Shown: positions 10,702 through 58,073 of the stretch, piece by piece | Numbering within the stretch: position 1 is the stretch's first letter | How the letters are laid out: the number at the start of each line of letters is the position of its first letter | Assembly: GCA_951406725.2 (NCBI GenBank) | Contig: OX597843.1 | Span: 14,322,001-14,386,000 of the forward strand | Length of the DNA: 64,000 nt | Direction of reading: 5' to 3' | Source of the DNA: Octopus vulgaris | Lineage: Eukaryota | Program-made: the position numbers and the translations under genes | Notes under the pieces: generated by a model | Told to the model about the DNA's origin: nothing | The model's database searches: none | Seen by the model: only the letters and a program-made list of their open reading frames with translations

Positions 10702-12138
10702 CTTTATTACCCACAAGGGGCTAAACACAGTGGGGACAAACAAGGACAAACGGATTAAGTCGGTTACATCAACCCCAGTGCGTAACTGGTACTTAATTTA
10801 TTGACCCTGAAAGGATGAAAGGCAAAGTCAACCTCGGCGGAATTTGAACCCAGAACGTAACGGCAGACGAAATATGGCTACGCATTTCGCCCAGCATGCT
10901 AACCTTTCTGCCAGCTCGCCGCCGTCTATATATATATTGTGTGTGTGTGTGTGTGTGTGTATTTGCCACCCCCACCCCATTGCTCAACAACTGATATTGG
11001 TGTGTTTGCATCCTTGTAACTTAGTGGTTTGGCAAAAGCAACTGATAGAATAAATCTTGGGGTTGATTTGTTCAACAAAAGGTGGTGTTCCAGCATGGCC
11101 ACAGTCAAAATGACTGAAACAAATGAAAGAAAAAAAAAAAAAATCTATATATATATATATACACACACACACATACATACATACATACATACACATATGA
11201 CAAGTTTTCTTTCAGTTTCCATCTGCCAAATCCACTCACAAGGCTTTGCTTGGGCTGAGGCTATAGTAGAAGACACTTGCCCAAGGTGCCACACAGAGGG
11301 ATTGAACCTGGAACCAGGTGATTGGGAAGCTGACTTCTTACTACACAGTCATATCCGAGTACATGCTCGCGCGTGTGTGTGTGGAGGTGTGTGTGTGCAC
11401 ATGCATATATATTACACTTTCATACAATTTCCATCGACAAGGTATTGGCCAGTCCTAATCTGAAGAAAAAAAATTGCCAAAGGAGCCATGCAGTAGGATG
11501 GAACTCATAACCTTGTGATCTCCTTCGGTGATGAATGACCATGGAATTGCACCTAGAATGTTACCCTCCGAGGCACAAGTCCGGGTAAGGTTGTTTATGG
11601 AAGACCAGCAGTCACCCACGCATACCAGCCCCCTCTCTTCACGCCACTGATGTTATCCAAGGGAAAGGCAAAGGGGCCGATACAGCTTGGCACCATTGAC
11701 GTCGCAGCTCATTTATTAACGTGTAAGTGGCTGAGTACTCCACAGACACATGTACCCTTAACGTAGTTCTCGGAGAGATTCAGTGTGACACAGAATGTGA
11801 CAAGGCTGGCCCCTTTGAAATACAGGTACAAGAGAAAGAGGAAGAAAGAGGGAGAGAAAGTTGTGGCGAAAGAGTACAGCAGGGTTCACGACTACCCCCT
11901 GCTGGAACCTTGTGGAGCTTTAGGTGTTTTCGCTCAATAAACACTCACAATGCCCGGTCTGGGAATCGAAACCGTGATCCTATGACCACGAGTCCGCTGC
12001 CCTAACCACTGGGCCACTGGGCCTCCACTCATAACTACATGGTTGCAAACCTCAAACAAGAATGGAAATAGAGAAACTCAGAGCAACAACTAGGCTGAAT
12101 CTAATATTTCACTTAACTCCTCACCTCATTTGCAAATC

Positions 12139-12188
<50 letters not shown>

Positions 12189-12374
12189 GATCCTTTCTGG
12201 AGTTGCTTGACCTGCTAGAAACAGCAACCAAAATTTCAAATATGAAGACCTTGGTATACAGAAAAGAAACCAAGAAAAAAAACTGGATGGTCAGAATTAG
12301 AATGCCTTTGTTCATAGGTCAACAGGATGAGGACTAGCTCATATCCTTTATACAAAAATCTTTATACAATCATT

Positions 12375-13665
12375 TGAATTGTTAGGTATAGCAGCAAAAT
12401 CACCCTCAAATCACACCCTACTCTCTTATGTATGTATATATGTATGTATAAGCCAATGAGGGAGACCTCTACATGGTAGCTAGACATGGTAGAAATAGCA
12501 GCCAAATCTCCCTCAAATCACACCCTACAGTCTTATCTATGTATATATGTATGTATGAGCCAATGAGGGAGACCCCTACCTGGTAGCTAGACATGGTAGA
12601 AATAGCAGCCAAATCTCCCTCAAATCACACCCTACTCTCTTATGTATGTATATATGTATGAGCCAATGAGGGAGACCTCTACATGATAGCTAGACCTGGT
12701 AGAAATAGCAGCAAAATCACCCTCAAATCACACCCTACTCTCTTATGTATGTATATATGTATGTATGAGCCAATGAGGGAGACCTCTACATGGTAGCTAG
12801 GCTTCCTTGAAATAGCAGGCAAATCTCCCTCAAATCACACCTTACTCTCTTATGTATGTATATATGTATGTATGAGCCAATGAGGGAGACCCCTACCTGG
12901 TAGCTAGACATGGTAGAAATAGCAGCCAAATCACTCTCAAATCACACCCTACTCTCTTATGTATGTATATATGTATGTATGAGCCAATGAGGGAGACCTC
13001 TACATGATAGCTAGACCTGGTAGAAATAGCAGCCAAATCTCCCTCAAATCACACCCTACTCTCATGTATATATGTATGTATGAGCCAATGAGGGAGACCT
13101 CTACATGGTAGCTAGACATGGTAGAAATAGCAGCCAAATCACCCTCAAATCACACCCTACTCTCTTATGTATGTATTTATGTATGTATGAGCCAATGAGG
13201 GAGACCTCTACATGGTAGCTAGACATGGTAGAAATAGCAGCCAAATCTCCCTCAAATCACACCCTACTCTCTTATGTATGTATATATGTATGTATGAGCC
13301 AATGAGGGAGACCTCTACATGATAGCTAGACCTGGTAGAAATAGCAGCCAAATCTCCCTCAAATCACACCCTACTCTCATGTATATATGTATGTATGAGC
13401 CAATGAGGGAGACCTCTACATGGTAGCTAGATCTGGTAGAAATAGCAGCAAAATCACTCTCAAATCACACCCTACTCTCTTATGTATGTATATATGTATG
13501 TATGAGCCAATGAGGGAGACCTCTACATGGTAGCTAGACCTGGTAGAAATAGCAGCCAAATCTCCCTCAAATCACACCTTACTGTCTTATGTATGTATAT
13601 ATGTATGTATGAGTCAATTAGGGAGACTTCTACATCAGATAAAAATAGCAGCCAAATCTCTCTCA
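12375..13665 (+). repeat. Satellite array, ~12 units of 101-107 bp
   Basis: GCCAATGAGGGAGACC recurs at 12452, 12559, 12662, 12769, 12876, 12983, 13084, 13191, 13298, 13399, 13506 and degenerately at 13613. Confidence 0.95.
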
Positions 13666-14699
13666 ATTCACACATTGGTTAAAGTTGTATATGGTGAGCT
13701 GGTCATGGCTGGAATGCATTTGATTATGTCTTTACAGTCAGTTCTTACTCAGGATTAAACACAACTACCACCATCACTGCCAACAACATCCCTCCACACT
13801 CCCACATCAGAGATTCACTAATTAGGAAGTCGTTATTTATAATTAACACCTAATGAGAAGAATGTACCGATGCTAAGGAATGTAAAGCGAGGGTGGTGAA
13901 GATGGTGGTGGGGATTGTTGCAAAGGGTATGGCTGATGGTTGTGATGATGATGATGATGATGATGAGGGTATTGATGTTAAAGGTGGTGGTGGTGGTGGT
14001 AGTAGTAATGGCAGTGGTGGTAATAGTAATAATGGTGGAGGTGAAGGTGGTGGAAGTGGTTGTTGTGGCAGTGCTGTACTGTTCAGGAGAACAAGTATTT
14101 AAAATAGAACAGGGTGGGGGATTTTGTGCTCATCACCACAAGGTACTCAGCGGACTGAACATGCTAGAAATATCAAAGCATTGTACAGTCTGAAAGTGTG
14201 AGGAGGCACATTGAATAATATCTGGGTGGGCATGGTTGGACCACCTTTGATCAGAGGGTCTGCTTGCTTGGCAAGAACAAGAACATGGTGTGTCCTTGAC
14301 ACACCATGTCTGAAACAAAAAAGGGGCTGGTCATGGATGGAACACCTTTTGATCATAGGGTTGCTAGAACAAAGTTGGCCTGGGTCTATAACAACAACAC
14401 ACATTGACACAGAACCTGCTAGAAACAGCAGCCAAATCTCCCTCACCTCACACCATACAGTTTTTATTACAGGATACATGAGATCATATAGCCACCCCTT
14501 CTCCTCCTCATCATCATTAGGGGTCAAGCTTCTACTAGATGACCCTTGAGGGTCCACTTATCTCTTTCTCCCATGACTTGCTTCAGTTCTTCTCAGGGTC
14601 AGCTGTTAAGTTAACTAACATATTTCACAAGTCAGCCAATGAGATTACAATCTCACCCAGATGTCCTGACTTGGGGTCACAAATAGGTGCTTCCTTTAA

Positions 14700-14925
14700 T
14701 GAGGTGCCACTAACTTGTGCCCCATTACTCCTCCAGTAAGGTTCCACTGACCTGGACCTCCTTAACTCCTCCAGTAAGGTTCCACTGACCTGTGCCTCAT
14801 AACTCCTCCAGTAAGGCTCTACTGACCTGGACCTCCTTAACTCCTCCAGTAAAGTGCCACTAACCTGTGCCTCATAACTCCTCCAGTAAGGCTCTACTGA
14901 CCTGTGCCTGCTTCCTTCTCCAGTA
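14700..14925. repeat. Minisatellite, ~36-38-bp unit
   Basis: CTCCTCCAGTAAGG.TC.ACTGACCTG repeated about 6 times. Confidence 0.85.
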
Positions 14926-15203
14926 GGGACCAGAGAACTGAACTATTCTTTCTCTGATGGGGCACAGTAACTTTCTAAGAATTTTATTGTGTAAACTCTG
15001 CCGACAGCATGTAGTCCCAGATACGATGGTCGTAGAAGGATTTTGATCCTAAGTCTATTCAATCACAGTTGACCTGGGGCACAATATTTAAATTAATAAT
15101 GGGTCAACACTGTTTCGTTTCATTGCTACATTACGTAGTAGAGAACATGTCTACACTCTTATTAGCCAACGCTGTATGTTATGACAAACACAGACATTAC
15201 ATA

Positions 15204-15260
<57 letters not shown>

Positions 15261-15271
15261 GTATGCTGATC

Positions 15272-15620
15272 TTTGTAGGGGGAACCTATGGCAGAGGTAG
15301 ACCCAGGAAAACATGGGTCGTGGTACTGAAGTGTTATCTACAGATTTTGGTCTCAAGGAGGCGATGACAAGTGATCGAGACCCTTGGCAATTTGCTATGT
15401 TTGAGAAGACACCAAGCCAAGTGAAACCGTAGTGATGACCAGTACCCATAACACGTAAAAGGGACCCAGTACACTCTGTAGAGTGGTTGGTCTTAGGAAG
15501 GGTATCAAGTCATAGAAAATAAGCCCAAACTGGAGCCTGGTACAGCTCTCTGGCTTACAAGTTCCAGTCAAACTATCTAAACCATGCCAGCATGGAAAAT
15601 GGACACTAAATGATGATGAA
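15272..15620 (+). mobile_element. 5'-truncated RTE-clade LINE (ORF C-terminus, 3' UTR, (GAT)n tail)
   Basis: Translates GTYGRGRPRKTW..., then after a frameshift EAMTSDRDPWQ; runs into the abundant AGGAAGGG.ATC...CCATGCCAGCATGGAAAATGGAC..TAAATGATGATG repeat, identifying that repeat as the RTE 3' end (other copies ~1305-1495, 16081-16222, 17375-17545, 19552-19935, 20946-21295, 49097-49342). Confidence 0.7.
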
Positions 15621-16783
15621 TATATGTAGACATGCATGTGGTAAGTAGCTTGCTTACCAACCACATGGTTCTGGGTTCACTCCCACTGCATGGCAAGTGT
15701 CTTCTACTATAGCCTTGTGCTGACCAAAGCCTTGTAAGTGGATTTGGTAGATGGAAACTGAAAGAAGCCCATTGTGGATGTGTGTGTGTGTATGCGTATA
15801 TATATATATATATATATACATACACATATGTGGAGGCGCAATGGCCCAGTGGTTAGGGCAGTGGATTCGCGGTTGTAGGATGGCGGTTTTGATTCCCAGA
15901 CCAGGCGTTGTGAGTGTTTATTGAGCGAAAACACCTAAATCTCCACAAGGCTCCAGCAGAGGGTACTCTTTCACCACAACCTTCTCTCACTCTTTCTTCT
16001 GCTGGCCAACTTGCTTAGCCAGTGGGGTGGCGTCACTGAAGGCTAAAACAATGCAAAACGCATTGTGACCAGCGATGTGTAGGAGTGGTTGGCGTTAGGA
16101 AGGGCATCCAGCCGTAGAAACACTGCCAGATCAGACTGGGCCTGATGCAGCCTTCTGGCTTCACAGACCCCAGTGGAACCGTCCAACCCATGCTAGCATG
16201 GAAAGCAGACGCTAAATGATGATATATATATATATGTATATATGTATGTATATGTATGTCTGTCTGTGTTTGTTTCCCCACCATCGCTTGATAACCAATG
16301 TTGGTGTGTTTACGTCCCCCGTCACTTAGTGGTTCGGCAAAAGAAACTGATAAAATAAGTACTAGGCTTACAAAGAATAAGTCCTGAGGTCAATTTGTTT
16401 GACTGAAGGCAGTGCCCCAGCATGGCCGCAATTCAAACGCCAAACAAATAAAAGATACACACACACATATATACATGTCAAAAAGGGCCAAAGCATGGAA
16501 CTGTCAGCCCTCGAGTCACTTTGTAATTTCTCTTCCAATTATTAATAAAAATATACAGTTATGCTCTAAATTCTGATTTCCTGTTTGCATCAGCCAAACC
16601 CCTACATGTGTGAACGTGTCTTTATGTCATGTTAAATGTAAAAACAATTTAACATTGACCTGAAAGCTTACTCAATGCCTTTTAGCAGGATGTGCGTTTT
16701 ATTTTGGTCGAGTTGGTCTCATTCTTCTCTGAGTTTCACTTGTGGGCACACAGGGTTTTTAGGCAAGTCACAATCATCTTAAC

Positions 16784-17198
16784 GGATCTTTTCCGTTTGA
16801 ACGGCAGTTTTTTCTAGCGGTGTCATATGAAATTGTCACCCATAATTATGACCCTAGTATCGATCTATTGCATTTCAATCTGTTTTAGGGTTAGGTTTGG
16901 GGGAAGGGTATCTTTTTTCCTTCAGAAATGTAAATAAACCCAATCTGTTTCTTAAACGAGGGACATATTCATACGCACAGAATGTTTTTTTTACCTCAAT
17001 GGACGTCATTGATTGGTTGAAATTGCAGAAATTGAAGAAAAAAAAACCCCACAAATACCTTACAAACTATAGAATTTTCTCAATAAAGCCAAGAGAAAAA
17101 GATGTTTTATAAACACATTCTACCAGTATACAAAGTTTAAAAGTGTTTAGTTACGTGGAAATTATTAAAAAAAACTGCCGGTCAAACCGAAAAGATCC
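16784..17198. mobile_element. 415-bp MITE with GG..CC ends, Merlin-like
   Basis: TIR GGATCTTTTCCGTTTGAACGGCAGTTTTTT / AAAAAACTGCCGGTCAAACCGAAAAGATCC; flanks ATCTTAAC and GTCTTAAC (8-bp TSD, one mismatch). Superfamily call is inference. Confidence 0.75.
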
Positions 17199-19079
17199 GT
17201 CTTAACTTAGCTGAAGACCCCATGCACCTTCAAGTGAAAATTCAGAGAAGAAAGGGACCGACTCGTCCAAAATAAGATATTCATCTCTATTACAGTATTG
17301 AGTGCTCTTTCGTTTGGTAGTCAACACTCCAAAGTGTGTGTGTGTGTGTGTACACCAATCTATCTATGATGTTCATCATCATTTAGCATCCATTTTCCAT
17401 ATTGGCATGGGTCGGAGAGTTTGACAAGAGTTGGCAAACTGGAGAACCGCACCAGGCTCCAATTTGGATGCTTTGAAGTGGTTCCTACAGCTGGATGCCG
17501 TACAAGTGTTATGACCCTCTCTACAAGGTGCACTGGGTGCATTGTATGTTGATGGCAGCGGCTGCAGCGAGTGTATGCAGAGACTTACAACCTATTTCTT
17601 TACTACCCACAAGGGGCTAAACACAGAGAGGACAAACAAATTAAGTCGATTACATCGACCCCAGTCCATAACTGGTACTTATTTAACCGAAAGGATGAAA
17701 GGCAAAGTCGACCTCGGCGGAATTTGAACTCAGAATGTAGCGGCAGACGAAATACTGCTAAGTATTTTGCCTGGCGTGCTAATGTGTCAGCCAGCTTACC
17801 ACTGCCAGAGACTTACAACCTCTTCTCACATGTGACATAGTTGACTTGAGAGAGAGATATGAGGGAGGAAAATTGGACCCAGTAAGTGATGAGGTACTTT
17901 GACTTCAAATGTCGATTCAAGGATTTGAACTCACAATGTAGTCATAAGGAAAGGACTGTTTAACCAGAGGGACCTGGTTTTAAACTGAGACAAAATATAC
18001 GTTTTTTTAAATACACAGATATGACCACATTCTTGCATGCGCACGCGCGTGTGAGAGAGAGAGGAGGCATAGACACCCACCCATAAATATATATATATAT
18101 ATACACATACACACACACAAATATGCATAGCATGTACACACATGCACACACAACATACACGCCCACACCCTATTAAACAGTTAATGGTAACTGGTTGATT
18201 CATAGAGAAAATGCTGTGAGCGAGTGGAGGAGGAAGTGGATACTTGTTGATGACAGAGATAGCACTTAAGGAAAAGAAACAGAAAACCAGCAGCAGAGGG
18301 AAGGGGAAGAGGACGGGGAGGTCTTTAGGCCCTCACTAACAGGACTGAGCTATATATATATACATATGTATATATATATATCTATGGCTAATTGTAAAAT
18401 CTCAATGATGACAAAGTTTGTCACAGACCCGTCTGACCCTAAAATGAGGGGCAGGACATATTTACTTGGCATCCATGCATCATATGATGAGACACATTCT
18501 CAATTTAACTCTTACTTGTTTCAGTCATTTTGACTGTGGCCATGCTGGAGCACCACCTTTAGTCGAGCAAATCGACCCCAGGACTTATTCTATCAGTCTC
18601 TTTTGCCAAACCGCTAAGTGACAGCGATGTAAACACACCAGCATCGGTTGTCAAGCAATGCTAGGAGGACACAGACACACAAACATATACTCTTTTACTT
18701 GTTTCAGTCATTTGACTGCGGCCATGCTGGAGCACAGCCTTTAATCGAGCAACTCGACCCCAGGACTTATTCTTTTGTAAGCCCAGTCTCTTTTAGCCGA
18801 ACCGCTAAGTAATGTGGACATAAACACACCAGCATCGGTTGTCAAGCAATGCTAGGGGGACAAACACACACACATATATATACATATACATACATATATA
18901 CGACAGGCTTCTTTCAGTTTCCGTCTACCAAATCCACTCACAAGGTTTTGTTCAGCCCGGGGCTATAGTAGAAAACACTTACCCAAGGTGCCATGCAGTG
19001 GGACTGAACCTGGAACCATGTGGTTGGGAAGCAAGCTACTTACCACACAGCCACTCCTACGCCTATACTTGTTTACTTT

Positions 19080-20560
19080 CAATTACAAGAGTCACTTGGG
19101 ACTTAGGAAAGGAAAACTTTATTTTACTCAAATTATGAGACAAAAGAAGTTAGAAAAGAAGCATGGAATTCTAGGACAAAGTTATTAAAATCCTTTGGAT
19201 TGGCAAAAAATCATACAGAAAGCCTTACTATAAAGACATTGTTTTGTATAACAAATTCACCAACATCACCTTAAAGCTACCTCTTGTAAAAGACCTGCTC
19301 AACTCTTGGTCTGTCTTGTCTATCTCAAGAAATACACGGGGCATATTTCCCTGGCATCCATACACCATACTACACAGTCCTTATTTTTATCTTAATCACC
19401 AGAGTGACTTGGAACTTATGAAAAGAAAACTTTGTTTTACTCAGAACGTATGAAAACAAGAGATAACAAAATCTCTGTAAACAAGAATGGATGTTTAGGA
19501 CAGACTTATGAAAATGCTTCGGACAGCCAAACGGTGGATGTCACACAGTTTCATCATCATCATCATTGTTTAACGTCCGTTTTCCGCGCTTGCACGGGTT
19601 GGATGGTTCGACCGGGGTCTGGGAAGTCAGGAGGCTGCACCAGGCTCCAGTCTGATCTGGCAGTGCTTCCTAATGTCCTTCCTGGATGCCCTTCCTAATG
19701 TCAACCACTCCGCGAATGTAGTGGGTGCTTTTTACGTGCCAGGGGAATCTGGCAGCGGCCACGATCAGTTGGTGCTTTTAACGTGCCAGTGGCATGGAAG
19801 CCAGTCAAGGTGGCACTGGCATCGGCCACGCTCGGATGGTGCTTTTTATGTGCCACCGGCGCAGAAGCCAGTCGAGGCGGCGCTGGCATCGGCTACGCTC
19901 GGATGGTGCTTTTTATGTGCCACCGGCACAGGTACTATAAAGATATATTTTGTAAAACAAATTCACCAAAGTCACACTAAAACTGTCTCTTCTAACAGAA
20001 CTGCTTATCCCTTTGCTTGTCTTGTGTGTCGCATAGGATACTCGGGACATACTTCCCTCGCACCCATGCAACATATAAGATAGACATTGCCAATTTTTTA
20101 TTTTAACCCTTTAGTGTTCAGATTATTCAATCAAACATAATCCCTATTGATTCCCATTGATTTGAATTAATCATGCATTATCTCATATCTTCAAGATCTT
20201 GATGGTGTAATTACTTAATGTAGAATAACATTGTAGGGTAGGTGTGAGAGCCTGGATCTGGTCAGTTTGAACATAAAACAGATTAAATATTTTGGCCAGA
20301 TATGGCCGGTTTAAATTACTAAAGGGTTAATCCCCAGAGTAACTTGGGACTTAGGAAAAGAAAGCTTTATCTTAAGTGAGAACATGTGGAAGAATGAAGC
20401 ATGGATGTAGAGGAGAGACTTGTGAAAATGCTTTGGACAGGCATGGCGTTAATGCCACAGAATGAGCCACCAGGAAGACACATTTTGTATTACATAAATT
20501 CAAAGTCACACCAAAAACTGTCTCTGCTAACAGAACTGTTTAACACTTTCCCTCTCCTGT
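19080..20560. repeat. Old ~310-bp degenerate tandem repeat (3 copies) interrupted by an RTE 3' end and a piggyBac MITE
   Basis: AGAGT.ACTTGG.ACTTA.GAAA.GAAA recurs at ~19088, 19401, 20337; TTTTGTA..ACA.A(A/T)TTCA recurs downstream of each. Confidence 0.65.
20107..20326. mobile_element. piggyBac-type MITE
   Basis: TTAA|CCCTTTAGT...ACTAAAGGG|TTAA. Confidence 0.8.
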
Positions 20561-21671
20561 GGGGTCTGGTGTTTATGGGGCTGAGGATCACAGTATTAGG
20601 CAGTATAGTCTGAGATACACTCAGCCACAAAAGCTTTCTGGTACAGATCTGCTTGATCAGGGCTGACCGAGGGCTAAACAACAACACCGGAGATGAAATG
20701 AAAATATGCAGATGAAAGGTGTGTACGATGACAATGACGTTAATAACGTCATCTCAGACAACAAAATTTCCAATTTAGGTACCATCGACACTCCCCTCCA
20801 CCCGAGTACTTGATTGGGGCTCTATTTTATTGACCTTGAAAGGATGAAAGGCAAAGGTGACCTTGGTTGGAATTGAGCTCAGAACAAAAAGAGCCGGAAG
20901 GAGTGCCACAAATCACTTTGACATGTCAACAATTCTGCCAGCTCACATCATCATCATCATTGTTTAACGTCCGCTTTCCATGCTAGCATGGGTTGGATAA
21001 TTTTGAGGATTGGTGAACCAGATGGCTGCACCAGGCTCCAATCTTGATCTGGCAGAGTTTCTACAGCTGGATGCCCTTCCTAATGCCAACCACTCCGAGA
21101 GTGTAGTGGGTGCTTTTACGTGCCACCAGTACGGGCGTCAGTCAGGCGGTACTGGCAACGACCTCGCTCGAATCTTTTTACACGTGCCAGTGAAGCGACG
21201 TTGGTAACGATCACGCTCGAATGGTGCCCTTTTACATGCCATGGGTATGGAAGCCAGTTGGCTGCTCTGGCAACGATCACGCTCAGATGGCTGCGATAAT
21301 GGTGATGATGATGGTGGTGGCGGTGGTAGATGTAGTAGGTGCTGGTGATAGTGGTGGTGGTGGTGATGACGGTAGTGGTGGTGGGAGCAACAGTGGTTGT
21401 CATTAATGTTAAGTCCAATCTTGTTAATACTGTGGACAAATTGGTCAAGTGCCTGTATGGAGAGGGGGAGGGAGGGGGAGGTACCCAGAGGAAGTGCCTG
21501 ATGTTTCCTGCCCACCCACCCTCAAATGTCATTCCACCCATAAAATAATATTTACTCATATCAGCAGAGCCATGCAGTGAGACTATATATAGTTGCATGA
21601 TCTGCCAGAAATAGTAGCTGAATCTCCCTCAAGTCACACCCTGTTGGGGATTTTTTGAATAAAAACACATA

Positions 21672-21833
21672 GGCATAGGACTGGCTATGTGGTAAGTTGC
21701 TTACTTACGGGCCACATAGTTCCGGGTTCAGTCCCACTGCGTGGCACCTTGGGCAAGTGTCTTCTGCTATAGCATCGGGCCGACCAAAGCCTTGTGAGTG
21801 GATTTGGTAGACGGAAACTGAAAGAAGCCCGTC

Positions 21834-21889
<56 letters not shown>

Positions 21890-22104
21890 ATATGTTTGTG
21901 TCTTTGTTTGTCTCCTCAACATTGCTTGACAACCGATGGTGGTGTGTTTATGTCCCCGTTACCTAGCAGTTCGGCAAACGAGACTGATAGAATAAGTACT
22001 GGGCTTACAAAGAATAAGTCCTCGGGTCGATTTGGTCGACTAAAGGCGGTGCTCCAGCATGGCCACAGTCAAACGACTGAAACAAGTAAAAGTGTAAAAG
22101 AGTA
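21672..22104 (+). mobile_element. SINE family A
   Basis: Near-consensus copy with GTAAAA tail repeats. Confidence 0.9.
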
Positions 22105-23458
22105 TAATGTTGTCCTAGATATGGTATGACAAAATTAAGACAGGATGGTCATAGCTGGAACATCTTTGATCGTAAGTCAACTGGATCAAGACTGACGTGG
22201 GACTAAACAACAAGGATGGAACATGTTTGATCAGAGGTCATAGGACTAACCTAGGGTTAAATAACAGCAAGGAAGGACACATCAGATAATGTAGTCCTAG
22301 ATACACTATGTCTGAATGAAAGACAAGATAGCCATGGCTAGAACATCTCTGATCATAGGTCTATAGGATGAGACTGACCTGGGGTTAAACAGAAAAAGCA
22401 GCTAAATCTTGAAATGAGACGGGTGACAGTGGTTATTGCTGTTATTTAGCATCAGGTCAACTGTTTCCATATGAGCTCCATCCACAGCCATCCTGCCTTT
22501 TCACAGCAGGATGTAATGGAGTTCTTCCTACTTTTGAGATGCTAGAGCAATTTGACAGCTATTTCTAGCAGCTTTGTGTTGGTCTAAACACTTGTGAGTC
22601 CTGATTGAAGAGATTTAACAAGAAAATAATTCCAACTATGCCAATCCCTTCATATTCTCAGGCACACTACTGTCAACCTAGTATGATACTACTTGCTTTG
22701 AGAGACTTGGCTATTATTTCTAGCAGGTCTATCTACCATGAAGAGGTCTCCCTCATTGGCTCATACACACGTGTATACATACATAAGACAGTAGGGTGTA
22801 ATTTGAAGGAAATTTGGCTGTTATTTCTGGCAGACCAAGTAGAAATTTGCAAAGCAAAAGGAGAGCATATTACTAGTGCCTATCCCACAGATGACCACCA
22901 CATCTATCCTCATCACCACCTCCACCACCAATCTTATGCCCTCCCCATCCTGTGTCATGAGTCACGAAGAGATATAACAGGGTGGAGTGTACCAACCCAA
23001 CTAACATGAATGTCACTCACACACACACACACACACATGCTGAACTGGTAATAACAACTTTGGACAGAATATCCTTACAGGGATCCATAAACCCTAGCCA
23101 GAAAAACCCCTACAGTCTAAGGACCAATCTAATGACGATGGGACTGGTGGAATTGTAAGAATAGGGGACCACATGTCTTATGGTATTGATTCAAGCTCCT
23201 TGTAGTCTGAGTTCAAATCCTGCCATGGCCTTCCAGAGTGGGAACCTCAACCCATCACCTGGTAAGCATTTGGGTGACATTTTGTTTGAGGGTACCTTCT
23301 CCCTTCCTCTCACTAGCTAGAAGGTCCCATAAAGGGTCACAAACACTGCTGTCCTTATTGATTGACCGTTAACATACTTATACTGAAATATACTTTATTT
23401 TAATTAGTGTGGAAAATAACGAAGAATGTAGTAAAATAATTTAGTTATCATTAAGATA

Positions 23459-23862
23459 GGCGCAGGAGTGGCTGTGTGGTAAGTAGCTTGCTTACCAACC
23501 ACATGGTTCCAGGTTCAGTCCCACTGTGTGGCATCTTGGGCAAGTGTCTTCTGCTATAGCCCCGGGCCGTCCAAAGCCTTGTGAGTGGATTTGGTAGACG
23601 GAAACTGAAAGAAGCCCGTCGTATATATATATGTATATATGTGTGTGTGTATTTGTGTGTCTATGTTTGACCCCCTAGCATTGCTTGACAACTGATGCTG
23701 GTGTGTTTATGTCCCCCGTTACATAGTGGTTTGGCAAAAGAGACCGATAGAATAAGTACTGGGCTTACAAAGAATAAGTCCCGGGGTCGATTTGCTTGAC
23801 TAAAGGCGGTGCTCCAGCATGGCCGCAGTCAAATGACTGAGACAAGTAAAAGAGTAAAAGAA
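23459..23862 (+). mobile_element. SINE family A inserted in a piggyBac-type MITE relic (~23370-23988)
   Basis: Full SINE; flanks match the reverse complement of the 43262-43468 MITE and end ...AAAAGGG|TTAA. Confidence 0.8.
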
Positions 23863-24529
23863 TAGTGTTAGGAACATAAATTGTGACTAAGGTTTGGTGG
23901 AAGATTTTCATTCAGAACTTTTGAAAACAAGACATTTGTACTAAGGAGCCAGAGGTGGTTTCAGCCAGGTTGGTATCAAAAGGGTTAAAACAGTGGCAAC
24001 ATGATTTGCTGGTTGGGGTGTTACACTCCCAATTGTCAGATGGTGGGTTTGAATTCTGGACTGGGTAACGTTTGGCTTCCTTGAGTAAAATACTTTATAT
24101 CCCGTTGTATAGAGACCGGCCTGCTGAAGAATGGACCCAATGTTCCTTCTGCATGTCACGAGAGGCAACAAAAAGGGGTTGAGGAGGGATTTGCACTCTG
24201 ACCTCGTAAAACCCTCACTAGCAACAATGACACAAACAGACCAGGGGGTTAGAAGGTTGTTGACAAAGTGGTACAAAGAGTCGCGGGTGCAGCAATGTGC
24301 TGTTGCATCGCATGCCCTCATAATAACAAAAGAACAAAAAAAACACTTTAAAACGGAGAGTTTGTATCACAGAACCAGAGCCAGTCTCAGAGGGTATCAA
24401 AAGGGTTAAGACAAACATGGAGCGTTCTAGAAGATGATCCACGTGAGAAGGGTATTTCTGTTGAAACACACTGTCTTCGTTGCAATTAATTTTGAGAATA
24501 ATGAAGAGTTTTTACTAAAGTAACTGTCA

Positions 24530-24746
24530 GTGGCTGTAGCGAAAGCGGTGGTATGGTGGACCCGTTTGAAAGGGGTCAGACACTTTCCTCTTTGGCCAAG
24601 GCCTCATCAACTTTTTCAAGTTTCACTTGAAAAGGAAGGTGAGAGTAGAGAGGGAAGGGCTGTCTGATGGCAAGTTTACTGAAAGGTGGGTGAATGTCGC
24701 AAGAATGGCCAGTATAAATGGACCAATTCTGAGGATACACCTGTAG
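24530..24746 (+). pseudogene. Tx1/L1-like LINE ORF2 C-terminal relic (frameshifted)
   Basis: VAVAKAVVWWTRLKG / DTFLFGQGLINFFKFHLKRKVRVEREGLSDGKFTERWVNVARMASINGPILRIHL*; AKxxVWxxR...FxERW pattern recalled from Tx1-type ORF2 ends. Confidence 0.5.
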
Positions 24747-26054
24747 TATAAAAAGGTATTATAAAAGAAGGGGCTCTCTACCCCCCTTTTGACCAGGCTC
24801 CCGTGGCTTTTATGGGTTTTTCCATGAGTAACTTTCCGAAGCCCCTCCCCCGATTGGGAATTTCAATTGTTATATTTTGCTTGACAACTGATGTTAGTGT
24901 GTTTACATCCCCGTAACTTTGAGGTTCGGCAAAAGAGACCGACAGAATAAGTACTAGGCTTACAAAGAATAAGTCCTGGGGTCAATTTGCTCGACTAAAA
25001 GCAGTGCTCCAGCATGGCTGCAGTCAAATGACTGAAACAAATAAAAGAATCAGCATTTTGCCCTGCACACTGAAGTTTCCACCAGAAGGAATCTCGCTTA
25101 GCATTTTGTCTGGTCTGCCAAGGATAAAAAGGGATTTCATGTGCCGGAAGGGCAACTGGTGATGGGAGTTTATCAGGACAATTTACAGAAAAATGCAAAG
25201 GAGGGAAGGAGAGTCACAGAATTCCTTATTAGAAGTGGGTGGTGGAAATGTATGACAAGGGTATACAAAGGGACCTGAAGCAAGATCAATAGGGTGGGTG
25301 CAGCTATACAGGGGCCAAACAAGGATTCCCACACTTCTAGAAATCCTGATTACTAAAGTCAAACTGCCACCCTTCACCTTACCACCCACCCACCACCCTC
25401 TCTCTCTCTCCCCTTTAATTGTCATTCCCTGCCTGACAATAGGAAGTCAGCAACAGGCAGGATGTGGGCCTTTGAGCTTTTCTCTGTAGGTCTTTCAACT
25501 TTTCCAAAATATTTCTCTTTTTTTAAAGTTTTCTGTATTTGTGGTGCATTGAGCAAACTGATGGCATTTAAAGGGTCTTTTGTGTCATAACAGGATTCAG
25601 TATTTGCTAACATAAAAGCATTTTTAGTGATGGCAATGAGGAGGAGGGTAGGGCATTTGGGGACCCCTTTTTTTTATATATGTAAGAGACGTGGGCAGAA
25701 AAGTATGGCTGTGTGGTTAAAGAGTTTACTTCACAACCTTGTGGTTTCAGGTTCATTCTCCAGAGTTTGACACCCTGGGCCTGGGCCAGTACCTTCTACT
25801 TAGAACCCTAGGGAAACTAATGCTTTGTGAGAGAATTTGGTAGACAGAGACTGAAACAAACCTGTCATGTGCATGCAAGTGTGTGTGTGTGCACGGGCGT
25901 GTAACCATCACCGAATGTCCTGGGACCCTGATCATGGTTGATGAGAATTACTGTGTCTGGTCAGATTGCTTGGAGAACAAACTTCTTCCACAGATATGGC
26001 TAACATAGTTATCTGGTCCCTGCAGCAAAAGCTCTTTCTAGTCAGCCTGTGTCA

Positions 26055-26129
26055 CCCTTGCCATTTTTGGTGATTAAGAAAACCAATTCTAGAAAGCAGC
26101 ATTCTGTTGCACTCACTGCATCTGAATTC
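26055..26129 (-). pseudogene. RTE-type LINE C-terminal zinc-finger relic
   Basis: Minus frame EFRCSECNRMLLSRIGFLNHQKWQG resembles the CxxCxR..SRIGLxxH terminus of RTE ORFs. Confidence 0.5.
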
Positions 26130-26551
26130 TCAACTGAAATCTTCTGGGATCTCTCTCTGTTTTCTCCCCTTTCGCAAGGATCTGTTGAGCACTTCATGTT
26201 CAACACACATTGTCTCAGGACCCTTTAGATTCCTATTTTACTCAAATGGACCCTCCTAGCCATTCAACATTTCAAAAATCCTATTAGGTTTGAATAATTA
26301 AACATTTTTAGGAATTGTATATTCTTTTATTCTTTTACTCGTTTCAGTCATTTGACTGTGGCCATGCTGGAGCATCACCTTTGGTCGGACAAATCAACTC
26401 CAGGACATTCGTTGTAAGCCTAGTACTTATTCTATCGATCTCTTTTGCCGAACTGCTAAGATACTGGGATATAAACACACCAACAGCGGTTGTCAAGCAA
26501 TGGTGGGGAAGACAAACATAGACACACAAAAATATATATATATATATATAT

Positions 26552-26590
<39 letters not shown>

Positions 26591-26726
26591 GCGGTTCGGC
26601 AAAAGAGACCGATAGAATAAGTACTGGGCTTACAAAGAATAAGTCCCGGGGTCGATTTGCTCGACTAAAGGCGGTGCTCCAGCATGGCCGCAGTCAAATG
26701 ACTGAAACAAGTAAAAGAAAAAGAAA

Positions 26727-26770
<44 letters not shown>

Positions 26771-27037
26771 ACAGGTTTCTTTCAGTTTCCATCAACCAAT
26801 CCACTCACAAGGCTTTGGTTGGCCTGAAGCTACAGTAGAAGATACTTGCCCAAGGTTTCACTCAGTGAGACTGAACCTGGAACCATGTGGTTGAGAAGCA
26901 AGCTTCACAGAGCCACGCCTGCACCTATAAAATAATTATTAAAATAGTCTGTGTTTTGTAGCAGTATAACCAATTACACATGAATTATGTGGAACCCCTG
27001 TTGAGAACCTTTGGCTTTAATCACCACCAGATTTAAC

Positions 27038-27299
27038 CAGGGCTGTGGAGTCAGAGTAGGAGAGTTGAAAACAATTAAGGGTAGCTGGAGTCAGCATCTG
27101 TAAAACTATACTGACTCTGACTCACAATATCTTTATTGTTTTTAATAAACCAGTTATAACATATGGGCCCCTTCAAAGTACAAGTGTATGCATATGCTTT
27201 ATGAGATATGTAGACCAGAATCCCTTAATTACATAAAAAGGAATCAGAGGTGCCAATAGTAGGGGAGTCGGAGTTTTTTGTTTTGACTTCACAGCCCTG
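27038..27299 (+). mobile_element. hAT-type MITE, copy 1
   Basis: TIR CAGGGCTGTGGAGTC / GACTTCACAGCCCTG; flanks GATTTAAC (left) and GTTATTTC (right). Confidence 0.85.
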
Positions 27300-28158
27300 G
27301 TTATTTCTACTAGGTCTAGCTATCATGTAGAGGTCTCACTCATTGGCTCATACATACATATATACATACGTAAGAGAGTAGGGTGTGATTTGAGGGAGAT
27401 TTGGCTGCTATTTCTACCAGGTCTAGCTACCATGTAGAGGTCTCACTCATTGACTCATACATAAGAGAGTAGGGTGTGATTTGAGGGAGATTTGGCTGCT
27501 ATTTCTACCAGGTCTAGCTACCATGTAGAGGTCTCCCTCATTGACTCATACATAAGAGAGTAGGGTGTGATTTGAGGGAGATTTGGCTGCTATTTCTACC
27601 AGATCTAGCTACCATGTAGAGGTCTCACTCATTGACTCATACATAAGAGAGTAGGGTGTGATTTGAGGGAGATTTGGCTGCTATTTCTACCAGGTCTAGC
27701 TACCATGTAGAGGTCTCCCTCATTGACTCATACATAAGAGAGTAGGGTGTGATTTGAGGGAGATTTGGCTGCTATTTCTACCAGGTCTAGCTACCATGTA
27801 GAGGTCTCCCTCATTGACTCATACATAAGAGAGTAGGGTGTGATTTGAGGGAGATTTGGCTGCTATTTCTACCTGGTCTATCTACAATGTAGAGGTCTCA
27901 CGCATTGGCTCATACATAAGATAGTAGGGTGTGATTTGAGGGAGATTTGGTTGCTATTTCTACCAGGTCTAGCTGCCATGTAGAGGTCTCCCTCATTGAC
28001 TCATACATAAGAGAGTAGGGTGTGATTTGAGGGAGATTTGGCTGCTATTTCTACCAGGTCTAGCTACCATGTAGAGGTCTCCCTCATTGACTCATACATA
28101 CATATATACATACATAAGACAGTAGGGTGTGATTTGAGGGAGATTTAGCTGTTATTTC
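27300..28158 (-). repeat. Satellite array (same family as 12375-13665, opposite strand): seven 91-bp units bracketed by 107-bp units
   Basis: TTTCTAC at 27304, 27411, 27502, 27593, 27684, 27775, 27866, 27957, 28048. Confidence 0.95.
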
Positions 28159-28404
28159 CAGGGCTGTGGAGTTGGAGTCAGAAATAATAGGTAGGTGGGA
28201 GTCTGTATAGTTTTACTGACTCTGACTCACAATATCTTTATTCTTTTTAATAAACCAGTCATAACATATGGGCCCCTTCAAAGTACAAGTGTATGCATGT
28301 GCTTTATGAGATATGTAGACCAGAATCCCTTAATTACATAAAAAGGAGCCAGAGGTGCCAATAGTAGGGGAGTCGGAGATTTTTGTTTTGACTCCACAGC
28401 CCTG
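28159..28404 (+). mobile_element. hAT-type MITE, copy 2
   Basis: TIR CAGGGCTGTGGAGT / ACTCCACAGCCCTG; flanks GTTATTTC (left) and GCTTTAAC (right). Confidence 0.85.
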
Positions 28405-29424
28405 GCTTTAACTCCACACACTCAATTACGTTTCAGTGTCCATGTGTTTGCATATAATTTGCACTGAGTGACATCTGCAAATGTTGTTGGCATTTATAAC
28501 GAAGCTGCAGCCAATTAGTGGCATCCGTTTGACCTTCCCTCTCAACAATTCATCCATAAGCCCAGTATTTTGGAATCCCTCTCAAATGAAAAATGGTTGG
28601 TGACAGCGAGAGCATCCAGCTGTAAAATCTAGCCCCAGAAGACTCCCTTCTCACCCCATGCCAGCATGGAAACGAAAGGGGTTAAACGAATGACTGCTGC
28701 TGTGTTGTTTTTGTTCAGATGCCCTTTCTTACAGCAGGTGACATCAGGGACCCTTAGGGGACCCCATAAATAAAATGCCCAGGCACAGATCTACGTGTGA
28801 GGGCCAGTGGAACTAACGTAATTCCATTTGAAAAGCAAGTAGGGGGTCAGCATTAGTAAGGGCATCAGGCTACAGAATACTGTTTCAATACTTTGCAACC
28901 AACCCATGTCAGCACAATGGTGGTGGTGGTCATGGTAATGACAGTAACGATGATTATGGTGATGGCAATGATGGTGATGATTGTGGTAGTGATGATGATG
29001 ATGATGGCAAGGAGAAGGATGATGACAGCGATGGAGGGGAAGTGGTAGTGATGATGATGATTGACTGAAGGGATTGGAAACAAACACCACAAGACATTCT
29101 ACCAAACGCTAACGACTGCTAATTAGCTACCCTCATCTAACTCATTCCAGTATGGAAAAAAAAAAAAAGACAAACCGACACGATGATGATGATGATGGTG
29201 ATTGTGGTAGTGATGATGATGATGATGATGGCAAGGAGAAGGATGATGACAGCGATGGAGGGGAAGTGGTAGTGATGATGATGATGATTATCTGGTTTTC
29301 CTAATTCTACCATTCTAAGAATTGATTAATCACAGAATATATTGGAAATAATTATTGAAGAATGAAAGGAATTTAAGATATTTAAATCAAATACCCCCCC
29401 CACACACACACCAGTACCAAAACA

Positions 29425-29860
29425 AGCATGCATATATACATACACACATACATGTACACATACACATACATACATGTACACATACATACATGTACACATA
29501 CACATATATACATACATATGTACACATACACATTATATATACATACATACACATACATACATGTACACATATACATACAGGTACACATACACACATACAT
29601 GTACACACACACATACATATACATACATGTACACATACATATATATACATACATGTACACATACATATATATACATACATGTACACATACATATATATAC
29701 ATACATGTACACATACATATATATACATACATGTACACATACATATATATACATACATGTACACATACATATATATACATACATGTACACATACATATAT
29801 ATACATACATGTACACATACATATATATATACATACATGTACACATACATATATATGCAC
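29425..29860. repeat. 26-bp minisatellite derived from a TA/CA microsatellite
   Basis: CATGTACAC at 29652, 29678, 29704 and onward. Confidence 0.9.
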
Positions 29861-30634
29861 CCACTCATGTATACACACACACGTTAAATATACCTCTCTC
29901 TCTATATATATATATGTCCGACATACACACAACAACATGGAATTTATGTCAAATAACATTTATACTTATAAACCTGAGCTCAAACACACACACTAACACC
30001 TACACAATATTCATACACAGAATTCAAATCTAATTTACACACACACATATTCCTACACACACATATTCCTACACACACACACACACACATATCCCTACAC
30101 ACACACACACACATATCCCTACACACACACACAACATATATACATACAAGTAATTTAAATGAAATAATAATTACACACACACTTTATTATTTACTGTTAA
30201 TGAAAGGAGAAAAGGGACCAGAACCCCTAGACCTTTTATAGGTTCCATAACACTGGTAGAAAGATGATAGGAAGTTGTCTTCAAACAGCAGAGCTGCTTT
30301 TCCCCTCTTATTTGTTGGTATCCCTTAAAGGTCAGGCATGAAAGGGCAACACCTGTGACCCTTTATATTTTCAGGGTCTCACACACTTAGGAAGAAAGGA
30401 TATAATCCAATATTGGTGTCAAGTCTTTAGCATTTAAACTAGCCAGGTCCAGCCTCTCAGACCTACCCAACAAGGCCATTCTCAAAATAATCCCATCATT
30501 GAAATCTCAAAGCTTTGAGATAATCCAGGATTAATTCAAAACAATGTGGATAAACAAGGATTACATTTGAGGGAGTAATATAACAATTAAAGGGTTAACC
30601 TTTAGCATTTAAAAGGGCCACATCTAGCTGAAGT

Positions 30635-45682: not shown

Positions 45683-46860
45683 AGTAAAATAGAGGGAACT
45701 GAAAAGTAGTTGTGCTGAGGGTGATTGATGGTGGAGTGGATGAAAGTGTTGGGGTGGGGTGGGGGTGACAAAGTTTGAGAAGTATGTGAGTGAGAGTGAG
45801 TGGTGGTGGTGGTGAGTGGACATGAGTGACAATTAGTAAATATGAGTGGTGAGTGGGGGGGGGGCTTGATGTGCCTGCAATGTTACAGAGAAAGTGAGAG
45901 AGAGAGAGAGGGAGGAGACACTTGTTTCTGTAATCCCCCCCCCCCGTTTCCTACTTCCCCCCCCCCCCCCACATACACATACACAACAACACCCAAGCAT
46001 ATACCCCACTTCACTCTTTCTCCTCTTCAAAAATGTCAACTGGGTCAGGTCAACATCTACTGGCAGAGAGCAGGGGGTGGGGGTGGATGGATGCGAGGGA
46101 TGGGACGGAACCCAACCAAGCAGCCAGTCAACCAACCAGGCAACCAGCCAGACTCCCTGTAACATGACCCCTGCCAGCAACAATAACTCCAACTACCAGT
46201 GCAAAGGAGGGACACCTCTGGAGGGGAACTGGACCTGCTAGAAACAGCAGTCAAATCTCCCTCAAATTGCACCTTACTGTTTTATCTATGTGTATACATA
46301 TAAGTCAATGAAGGCAACCTCTACATGGGAGCTAGACCTGCTAGAAATAGCAGTGAAATCTCCCTCAAATCGCTTGTGAGTGAGGATGTATGAACTATGA
46401 CCCAGAGAAGGAAACCCTTTCAAATGCCAGATGTCTTCAAAATGGTCAGATTTGTCCAGCAGATCCAGGACATCACTAATGACAGACCAAAATGAGTCAA
46501 TGGTGGAGCCATGTAGCGTCTTTCCAACCATGTGGTTCCAGGTTCCGTCCCACTGCATGGCACCTTGGGCAAGTGTCTTCTAATATAGTCCTGGAACAAC
46601 CAAAAGCTTTGTGAGTGGACTTAGTAGATGGAATCTGAAAGGAGCCTATCATATATATAAGTTACAGGAACATAAACATATCAACAGGGTATTAAATGGG
46701 GTGTGGGTACAGACACACACACAGATACATATCATCATCATCATTCAATGCCTGTCTTCCATGCTAGCATGGGTTGGACATATTTATATGTGACCTCGTG
46801 AGTACTACCGGCGATTTTTTTTCCTCTGTCTTCCCTTCTTGGGATCTTTCCTTCTCCTAT

Positions 46861-46895: not shown

Positions 46896-47004
46896 CCTCC
46901 TTCTTCCCTTCTTTCCTGAGCGTCCATATTATACTATATGTGTTCCACGTCCTTGCGTTGTTGTGTTTTTTGTTTTCTTGTTTGGATTAACTATATATAT
47001 ATAT

Positions 47005-48274: not shown

Positions 48275-49096
48275 CCCACCACCATTATAGGTGTCTACTC
48301 TTTGAACCCCCTCTTCAATACGCTATTTCACCATGCATTACCCCTCTCTCGATATCCTACGTTCTACTTGCCTAGAACCTGTCCTCTGGACCACCCCTCC
48401 CACTGGTGCTCACCCCTCCCACTGGTGCTCCCCTATATTTCTGCATCCCCCCACCACCATTATAGGTGTCTACTCTTTGAACCCCCCTCTTCAATACGCT
48501 ATTTCACCATGCATTACCCCTCTCTCGATATCCTACGTTCTACTTGCCTAGAACCTGTCCTCTGAACCACCCCTCCCACTGGTGCTCCCCTATATTTCTG
48601 CACCCCCCCACCACCATTATAGGTGTCTACTCTTTGAACCCCCTCTTCAATACGCTATTCACCATGCATTACCCCTCTCTCGATATCCTACGTTCTACTT
48701 GCCTAGAACCTGTCCTCTGAACCACCCCTCCCACTGGTGCCCACCCCTCCCACTGGTGCTCCCCTATATTTCTGCACCCCCCACCACCATTATAGGTGTC
48801 TACTCTTTGAACCCCCTCTTCAATACGCTATTTCACCATGCATTACCCCTCTCTCGATATCCTACGTTCTACTTGCCTAGAACCTGTCCCCTGAACCACC
48901 CCTCCCACTGGTGCTCCCCTATATTTCTGCACCCCCCACCACCATTATAGGTGTCTACTCTTTGAACCCCCCTCTTCAATACGCTATTTCACCATGCATT
49001 ACCCCTCTCTCGATATCCTACGTTCTACTTGACTAGTACCTGTCCTCTGAACCACCCCTCCCACTGGTGCTCCCCTATATTTCTGCACCCCCCCCA
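48275..49096. repeat. Tandem array, 5 units of 155-175 bp
   Basis: ACCATTATAGGTG at 48281, 48456, 48613, 48786, 48941. Confidence 0.95.
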
Positions 49097-54325: not shown

Positions 54326-54349
54326 GTCTTCAGCATGAATATGTGCACG

Positions 54350-54385
<36 letters not shown>

Positions 54386-58036: not shown

Positions 58037-58073
<37 letters not shown>

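What the first reader, a model, noticed from the sequence alone, without database searches (positions are those of the whole stretch)
27030..28412. Cointegrate-like block: MITE-satellite-MITE with reciprocally swapped 8-bp target duplications
Seen: two direct copies of one hAT MITE bracket a 9-unit satellite, arranged GATTTAAC[MITE]GTTATTTC-satellite-GTTATTTC[MITE]GCTTTAAC. Neither MITE has its own matching TSD. The outer flanks match each other (7/8) and the inner flanks match perfectly. The inner 8-mer is a variant (internal units read GCTATTTC) found only at the two array ends, and the ends join in register as if the array were an opened circle. Established: A[TE]B-X-B[TE]A is the geometry of a cointegrate. 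Inference: an extrachromosomal satellite circle was integrated either by MITE-MITE recombination or by replicative/alternative hAT transposition. This would be a route for seeding satellite arrays at new loci; a candidate source array lies 14 kb upstream in the opposite orientation.
Basis: partly seen in the sequence, partly recalled or inferred. Interest (0 to 1): 0.8.

Follow-up and report, generated by a model that had tools for sequence, protein, structure and literature searches.

The report
Tandem array spliced into old transposon
Two copies of a small DNA transposon bracket a short tandem-repeat array with their 8-base target duplications swapped, and because the copies share one rare, decayed core but have very different left ends, the array was likely spliced into an old transposon copy by recombination-type DNA repair, a tidy fossil of a known way in which repeats can move.

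Summary
The geometry is real. A[M1]B-(9 units)-B[M2]A' lies at 27030-28412, with outer 8-mers 7/8 alike, inner 8-mers 8/8 alike, and the array ends in register with exactly 8 bp overlap. Chance is about 0.1-0.6% even allowing for target preference measured in a related TIR family. New here: against family contigs from four sequencing runs, M1 and M2 share 12 of 15 minority letters over their 3' ~190 bp (3.7% apart). Their 5' ~56 columns differ by 25%, with 16 gap bases and an inverted loop. So at least one copy is likely a chimaera of two parents. That fits homology-driven splicing (crossover or template switching with conversion) into a resident MITE better than replicative copying of one element. 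A circle is allowed but not required (about 45%). The 'satellite' is an 851-bp array whose unit is likely built from a very high-copy poly(A)-tailed repeat. Three relatives in the window lack MITEs, so this is at most an occasional seeding route. No genome was held. The pre-event allele, the donor and the inner junctions are untested, and misassembly is not excluded. Verdict: a single new case of a known kind.

The parts
27030..27037 (+). Outer target duplication A (GATTTAAC)
   Evidence: 7/8 match to 28405-28412; scores like a typical target of a related TIR family
27038..27299 (+). MITE copy M1, 262 bp, with 15-bp TIRs (14/15 complementary) and GGAGTC-type subterminal motifs; its 5' loop 27100-27111 is the exact reverse complement of M2's
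27300..27307 (+). Inner target duplication B (GTTATTTC), also the first 8 bp of unit 1
27300..28158 (+). Tandem array of 9 units (107, 7x91, 107 bp) plus 8-bp terminal redundancy; six core units are 1.3% apart; the unit appears to be a piece of a very high-copy dispersed repeat plus a CATA microsatellite
28151..28158 (+). Second copy of inner target duplication B
28159..28404 (+). MITE copy M2, 246 bp; its 3' 190 bp is 96.3% identical to M1 and shares 12 family-minority letters; its 5' ~56 bp is of a different type
28405..28412 (+). Outer target duplication A' (GCTTTAAC)
   Evidence: a contig of run X20 joins M2's 3' part to the right flank, with 20 gap letters at a place not shown (record 32)
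12388..13673 (-). Related 12-unit array (96-107 bp units) with no MITE; candidate source, not shown to be one
22698..22835 (+). Older ~1.5-unit relative with no MITE; carries the GTTATTTC variant
46246..46371 (-). Older ~1.5-unit relative with no MITE

Best explanation
Two direct MITE copies with swapped 8-bp target duplications bracket a nine-unit array, share one rare decayed 3' core and differ at their 5' ends, and the block likely arose by homology-driven recombination or repair between an old resident MITE (A[Ma]A) and a second MITE copy sitting inside a tandem array (B[Mb]B). Shown: the geometry, the exact 8-bp in-register overlap, the shared minority letters and the discordant 5' ends. 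Inferred steps: (1) Mb inserted into a variant array unit whose T at position 2 fits the target preference, creating B. (2) A stretch of that array carrying Mb was presented end-to-end, either as a circle looped out by unit-unit recombination (about half of this model's weight) or by slipping back one or more units during template-switch copying of a linear array. (3) A crossover or template switch through MITE homology put it into Ma, giving M1 the 5' end of Ma and M2 the 5' end of Mb. (4) Gap repair or conversion, at the event or later between the two copies 1.1 kb apart, made the 3' ~190 bp of both come from one parent. (5) The 91-bp unit then amplified in place. No transposase is needed at the splicing step.
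For: Geometry and chance levels. 15 sites have a family letter above 60% of depth in all four runs; at 12 of them M1 equals M2 against the family (about 8 independent events, as two clusters are 3 bp each), and at 3 only M2 departs. The copy was therefore already about 6% from the family majority before it was duplicated, which argues against fresh transposition. The 5' and 3' parts differ in divergence: 14/56 vs 7/190, Fisher p=8e-6; without the loop 10/44, p=1.5e-4. Both loop orientations occur in family contigs, the M1 letters at 1-22% of depth with mapping biased to M2. GTTATTTC scores 1.34 bits against -0.72 for the usual GCTATTTC under the related family's target matrix. The terminal units are the 107-bp type seen upstream, while the six core 91-bp units are 1.3% apart. 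Homology-seeded satellite spread by conversion or eccDNA is proposed in PMC7403614, and template switching inside TIR elements in PMC8277862 (passages).
Against: No pre-event allele A[M]A and no donor B[M]B was seen: the window has only these two MITE copies and no genome was held. The parents would have been roughly 10-20% apart over 250 bp (family contigs vs M2), a poor substrate for recombination. The 5' GGAGTC motif cluster varies in number among copies of a related family, so part of the 5' difference could be slippage after duplication. The TSD pattern (A 7/8, B 8/8) is about 3 times likelier if B is young, as in transposase capture of a circle (0.28 vs 0.09). One contig in run X19 has only 5 other letters over 28240-28348 at about twice the usual depth, so a small subfamily may carry the 'shared' letters. 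The family letters come from coded, related organisms and summed contig depth, not from this genome's copies.
Confidence: 0.55

Rival explanations
1. Transposase captured a satellite circle. The right end of one MITE and the left end of another attacked an extrachromosomal array circle at B, making B a fresh TSD while A stayed old. The two ends came from sister chromatids of A[M]A, or from a tandem dimer A[Ma]A[Mb]A formed by double insertion.
For: Best fit to A 7/8 and B 8/8 (likelihood 0.28 vs 0.09 and 0.05). No MITE-bearing donor array is needed, and none is in the window. Tail-to-head hAT junctions integrate with 8-bp nTnnnnAn duplications (PMC2803484, passages). TE dimers by double insertion, including hobo, are documented (bioRxiv 10.1101/158386, passages). 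The dimer version would also give two different 5' ends.
Against: The sister-chromatid version predicts whole-length identity, but the 5' ends differ (P about 4e-6 at 3.7%, 0.001 at the upper confidence limit). The core was already about 6% decayed. The dimer version needs three rare steps plus later conversion.
Confidence: 0.17
2. Composite element. A MITE inside an array was duplicated with nine units (unequal exchange, or alternative transposition with re-replication repaired through unit homology), and the outer ends moved [M]B-array-B[M] to a new site, making A.
For: It gives the same string with no circle (inference). Maize composite insertions consist of TE ends flanking re-replicated DNA within an 8-bp TSD, and some were repaired by homologous recombination (PMC4270019, passages). 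The outer TIRs are intact.
Against: It predicts sister copies over the whole length, and the 5' ends disagree. It has the lowest TSD likelihood (0.05). It needs transposase action on a decayed copy. No donor is in the window.
Confidence: 0.13
3. Assembly artefact: two real loci, A[M]A and an array with B[M]B, were threaded together through the shared MITE.
For: A[M]B-X-B[M]A is also what a repeat-mediated misjoin produces (inference). The window has a 3.55-kb, 99.8% duplicate either side of its 100-N gap. No listed contig spans either inner junction or the whole block (laid only 28110-28900).
Against: M1 and M2 carry their own private changes (3 in M2 against the family). A 250-bp repeat is short for an assembly that resolves 1.2-kb arrays and has one gap in 64 kb (inference). 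One X20 contig ties M2's 3' part to the right flank without substitutions, which fits but does not exclude the artefact.
Confidence: 0.07
4. Two independent MITE insertions at the edges of a pre-existing array, with the 8-mer matches due to chance and target preference.
For: The related family has a clear target preference (T at position 2 in 88 of 116 flanks, A at position 7 in 84 of 116). A similar 8-mer (GCTTTAAT) lies 16 bp left of A (flank printed).
Against: Neither copy has its own TSD. P(A match) is about 0.005 even with the preference. It would also need in-register ends with an exact 8-bp overlap, the same rare variant at both ends, and 12 shared minority letters.
Confidence: 0.02

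Closest known systems
Homology-seeded spread of Rsp-like satellite into 1.688 clusters in Drosophila (PMC7403614; passages incl. abstract text)
   Same: A short euchromatic array arrives at a new locus through homology to an abundant resident repeat; eccDNA reintegration and interlocus conversion are the two proposed, unresolved routes.
   Different: Here the homology handle is a DNA-transposon MITE, whose two swapped TSDs record both junctions; it is a single locus.
Duplication/translocation through circular DNA intermediates (cattle KIT, tilapia vasa; PMC3420103 and PMC3245284, passages)
   Same: A circularly permuted insert; the cattle 'repatriation' is ascribed to homologous recombination with a resident copy.
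   Different: Those are 28-575 kb gene-bearing segments where permuted unique sequence points to a circle. In a tandem array permutation is not diagnostic, so the circle stays unproven here.
Pack-TIRs by gap-filling or FoSTeST (PMC8277862, passages)
   Same: Template switching inside an old TIR element captures foreign DNA, often from nearby in cis and without transposition.
   Different: Pack-TIRs hold filler inside one TIR pair joined by microhomology. Here there are two complete elements, four TIRs and a second TSD pair.
Maize Ac/Ds composite insertions by alternative transposition (PMC4270019, passages); macrotransposons and P-element hybrid-element insertion (recalled)
   Same: hAT-type ends flank duplicated donor-flanking DNA inside an 8-bp TSD.
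   Different: Those copy the donor ends faithfully; here the two 5' ends disagree and the core was already decayed.
Bacterial cointegrates and IS-homology plasmid integration; gapped-plasmid ends-in integration in yeast (recalled)
   Same: A[TE]B-X-B[TE]A geometry; gap repair makes both copies carry one parent's interior.
   Different: Animal-type genome, non-autonomous element, no replicon; only the product is seen.

Membership tests
hAT-superfamily MITE | Short terminal inverted repeats beginning CAG, with subterminal repeats | tested here: met
   15-bp TIRs (14/15 complementary in each copy) and GGAGTC-type motifs; the CAG-start rule is recalled
hAT-superfamily MITE | 8-bp target duplication | tested here: met
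   A/A' 7/8 and B/B 8/8 with exactly 8-bp overlap. In elements with the same TIR from metagenome contigs, 3 of 6 candidate full elements show 8/8, 7/8 and 6/8 at 8 bp and at most 3 matches at 7 or 9 bp; the other 3 show none
hAT-superfamily MITE | nTnnnnAn target consensus (PMC2803484) | tested here: inconclusive
   Met in the related family (88 and 84 of 116 flanks). At this locus A and A' have only the A at position 7, and B has only the T at position 2
hAT-superfamily MITE | Autonomous partner with the same ends encoding a hAT transposase | tested here: inconclusive
   L060 has a transposase-like frame, but it lies outside the TIR-bounded element and hit only DUF659 below Pfam's cutoff
hAT-superfamily MITE | Short, non-coding, many dispersed copies | tested here: met
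   246-262 bp; many distinct contigs laid in all four runs, up to 78 per site. The repeat-only frame 26356-26838 is the nearest ORF of 120 aa or more; none overlaps the block
Replicative cointegrate / hybrid-element or composite insertion | Swapped TSD geometry around two direct copies | tested here: met
Replicative cointegrate / hybrid-element or composite insertion | Both copies descend from one element over their whole length | tested here: not met
   5' 14/56 plus 16 gap bases vs 3' 7/190, p=8e-6; later conversion could rescue it
Integration by homologous recombination between two TE copies | Chimaeric elements at the junctions | tested here: met
   Shared 3' minority letters and discordant 5' ends; the parents themselves were not seen
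Integration by homologous recombination between two TE copies | Pre-event allele with one element and matched TSD; donor with element and TSD B | tested here: inconclusive
   No donor in the window; the unique right flank was covered in 1 of 4 runs and that contig ends inside M2
Circular-intermediate (eccDNA) insertion | Circular permutation that only a circle explains, or the circle itself | not testable with these tools
   The ends are in register, but tandem units allow the same join on a linear template
Satellite DNA (long arrays) | Long, high-copy tandem arrays | tested here: inconclusive
   The arrays in the window are 0.85 and 1.3 kb, with two ~1.5-unit relatives. The commonest continuation after 28158 in four runs is the dispersed-repeat type, not the array type (table 7). 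Genome-wide array size was not tested

The most novel reading that the evidence does not exclude
A germline satellite circle carrying a MITE integrated into a dead MITE copy by gap-repair recombination, or was captured by hAT ends, and left both junctions signed by swapped TSDs. If such blocks recur genome-wide, MITE families act as landing pads for eccDNA, and swapped-TSD counting becomes a direct, datable genomic assay for satellite spread through circles.
Probability: 0.15. Interest if true: 0.7.

Novelty: new member of a known kind. Interest (0 to 1): 0.38.

Why it matters
How short satellite arrays reach new loci is open: PMC7403614 names eccDNA reintegration and interlocus conversion and says experiments are needed. 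TSDs are rare built-in junction labels, so a swapped-TSD MITE pair gives an unusually clear record of a repeat-moving event. It also suggests a cheap genome-wide test. But one locus cannot separate a circle from template switching, the product types are known, and three related loci in the same window have no MITE beside them.

Tried and rejected
No whole genome is held, so the family-wide TSD census could not be run. The full-length MITE pattern found 0 metagenome stretches. The shorter TIR pattern gave 120 loci of related families, matching M1/M2 only over the first 21-39 bp. These were used only as a proxy for TSD length and target preference, after reducing to 116 unique flanks; some may still be the same insertion in replicate assemblies, and one or two (L028, L090) may be chance matches. 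Runs X1, X19 and X11 gave no cover of the unique right flank. The tool warns that filtered records leave holes, so this is no evidence of an empty or absent allele. Shares of 0.15-0.19 for organism C and one organism-A run were not interpreted. Of the 40 difference rows shown (28 more hidden) I used 22 and dropped 18 minor-letter rows. The unit tree had 1 of 17 branches well supported and does not name a source. The 8-bp anomaly after B in upstream unit 9 was considered as an excision footprint and rejected, because the unit length is unchanged. Rfam found 0 matches in 12000-30000. The L060 transposase-like frame could not be tied to these TIRs. Earlier-findings look-ups by place and by sequence were empty. 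Octopus terms in the paper searches came from a recalled resemblance of the window's dispersed repeats; no call identified the organism, and the listings held nothing on this repeat.

Full report
OBSERVATION. The block is as described: GATTTAAC (A, 27030-27037), M1 (27038-27299), GTTATTTC (B, 27300-27307), nine tandem units of 107, 7x91 and 107 bp, GTTATTTC (28151-28158), M2 (28159-28404) and GCTTTAAC (A', 28405-28412). All 8 internal sites read GCTATTTC. The array's ends overlap by exactly 8 bp. These are the only two copies of the MITE in the window. Random local 8-mers match at 7/8 or better with frequency 0.00125, and 41 of 127,984 window 8-mers lie within one mismatch of A. To test target preference I took 120 metagenome loci that share the TIR. 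They match M1/M2 only over the first 21-39 bp, so they are related families and a proxy. Their 116 unique left flanks show T at position 2 in 88 and A at position 7 in 84, the nTnnnnAn pattern reported for Hermes (PMC2803484, passages). Even so, two independent targets match at 7/8 or better with probability 0.0046, or in 40 of 6670 real pairs. Of 6 candidate full elements, 3 show an 8-bp duplication and 3 show none. The variant B scores 1.34 bits against -0.72 for the usual unit 8-mer, which fits B being a chosen target. One correction: the variant also occurs in a dispersed copy near 22.8 kb (3 of 32 motif matches have T at position 2).

THE TWO MITES. No genome was held, so I laid 28110-28900 on contigs of 4 of the 24 listed runs. 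Of the 40 difference rows shown (28 hidden) I used 22. At 15 of these the family letter exceeds 60% of depth in all four runs. At 12 of the 15, M1 has the same minority letter as M2 (28247-9, 28270, 28275-7, 28323, 28328, 28343, 28368, 28376; about 8 independent events). At the other 3 (28260, 28299, 28349) only M2 departs. M1 and M2 differ at 7 of 190 sites in 28215-28404 (3.7%, 95% interval 1.5-7.4%), whereas listed family contigs mostly carry 10-21 other letters per about 90-150. So the 3' cores come from one already decayed copy or a very small subfamily. One X19 contig with only 5 other letters over 109, at about twice the usual depth, keeps the subfamily reading open. The 5' parts are different: 14 mismatches in 56 aligned columns plus 16 gap bases (Fisher p=8e-6; without the loop 10 of 44, p=1.5e-4; alignment-dependent). 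A 12-bp loop is exactly inverted between the copies (27100-27111 vs 28205-28216), and both orientations occur in family contigs. Against over-reading this: the number of 5' GGAGTC motifs varies widely among copies of the related family. On balance two parents contributed the 5' ends and one parent the 3' cores (inference).

THE ARRAY. The stretch 28110-28163 drew summed depths of 81,000-766,000 against 260-26,000 over the MITE core, with T-rich loose ends before 28115-28122 and a different continuation after 28158. The unit is therefore likely a piece of a very abundant retroposon-like tail (poly(A) on the minus strand; inference) joined to a CATA microsatellite. Four loci in the window carry it: 12 units at 12388-13673, about 1.5 units at 22.7 kb, 9 units here, and about 1.5 units at 46.3 kb. 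Only this one has MITEs. Six core units are 1.3% apart. Inner versus upstream units average 6.0% (nearest pairs 2-4%), against 12% and 16% to the two short copies. Unit 1 groups with upstream units 4 and 10 at 85/80 support, below the tool's threshold. The upstream array is a compatible source, and would be MITE-free if the MITE-bearing stretch looped out, but this is not shown.

SUPPORT FOR THE ASSEMBLY. One X20 contig (232 letters, 28303-28554, 0 other letters, 20 gap letters) joins M2's 3' part to the right flank. Its depth (4.63) equals the residual depth at the M2-private site 28349 (4.6). The only repeat longer than 3 bp at 20-bp spacing there is the 8-mer at 28391/28411, so the gap probably removes the TIR end and most of A' in that sample (inference; the gap's place was not shown). 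No listed contig spans an inner junction. The other three runs did not cover the unique flank, which the tool says proves nothing.

MECHANISM. Four routes give A[M]B-X-B[M]A. (a) Recombination or template switching between a resident A[Ma]A and an array-borne B[Mb]B, with the array presented as a circle or by slipping between units. This gives two parents in one event, and gap repair or later conversion between copies 1.1 kb apart gives the shared core. (b) Transposase attack of MITE ends on a circle, which makes B young. (c) A composite element or maize-type composite insertion, which makes A young. (d) A misjoin in assembly. On the TSD mismatches alone the likelihoods are 0.09, 0.28 and 0.05 for a, b and c (rough ages of 3.7% and 16%). 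The 5' discordance has probability about 4e-6 (0.001 at the upper limit) if the copies are whole-length sisters, so single-parent forms of b and c need an extra conversion. I give (a) 0.55, (b) 0.17, (c) 0.13, (d) 0.07, independent insertions 0.02 and other 0.06. A circle is involved in about half of (a) and all of (b), about 0.45 overall. These weights are judgement.

COMPARISON. It works like homology-seeded satellite spread in Drosophila (PMC7403614, passages), like circular-intermediate translocation with repatriation by homology (PMC3420103 and PMC3245284, passages; bioRxiv 10.1101/2022.06.22.497135, passages), and like transposition-independent capture by TIR elements (PMC8277862, passages). 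It fails one defining feature of replicative or composite insertions (PMC4270019, passages), namely whole-length sisterhood of the two copies. TE dimers (bioRxiv 10.1101/158386, passages) and integrating hAT end-junctions (PMC2803484) make route (b) plausible. PMC3744419 and PMC4079207 were seen as listings only. Bacterial cointegrates, yeast gapped-plasmid integration, P-element hybrid-element insertion, maize macrotransposons and the Alu model of segmental duplication are recalled (of the last, only its reference title was seen). The MITE is hAT-like by its ends and TSD; a matching transposase was not found. The listings showed no title or abstract opening that describes a swapped-TSD MITE pair around a satellite array in an animal. 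The library lacks most subscription papers, and no supplements were read. The organism was not identified; a cephalopod is a recalled guess.

VERDICT. A real and well-signed rearrangement fossil, most likely recombinational, of a known kind. It is a single locus, with the circle unproven and the decisive allele unseen. Interest 0.38.

Noticed in passing
window 53777-57327 and 57464-61015: A 3.55-kb duplicate at 99.8% identity lies on either side of the 100-N gap (57364-57463); it looks like a scaffolding overlap or haplotype duplication rather than biology.
   Followed up: no
window 27014-27037 and 28405-28420: The reconstructed empty site is a degenerate 16-bp tandem: GCTTTAAT CACCACCA precedes A, and TCCACACA follows A'. 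It could be an older local duplication or footprint.
   Followed up: partly
window 27100-27111 vs 28205-28216: Exact 12-bp micro-inversion in a hairpin loop between the two MITE copies; both orientations are present in the family, suggesting template-switch flipping.
   Followed up: partly
window 12816-12801 (minus strand, upstream unit 9) and 12388-12395: The 8 bp right after the B-equivalent site differ at 5 of 8 positions without a length change, and the upstream array ends within the B-equivalent 8-mer.
   Followed up: partly
window 28385-28420: Run X20 (organism E) has a contig identical to 28303-28554 except for 20 gap letters; an 8-bp repeat 20 apart suggests a microhomology deletion of the MITE's right tip.
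   Followed up: partly
window 46999-48197 and 48275-49093: Two adjacent young tandem arrays: 372-bp units x3.2 at 99%, and 156/174/329-bp units.
   Followed up: no
window 61787-63620: Tandem duplication of about 740 bp period at 94% identity.
   Followed up: no
L060 876-2000: A transposase-like open frame (Cys/His N-terminal motif; weak DUF659 hit below cutoff) lies 376 bp outside the end of an element with the same TIR.
   Followed up: partly
L001-L120: A MITE family with the same CAGGGCTGTGGAGTC end is abundant in a few metagenome assemblies (about 810 stored stretches estimated), probably host DNA; its 5' GGAGTC cluster is highly variable in number.
   Followed up: partly
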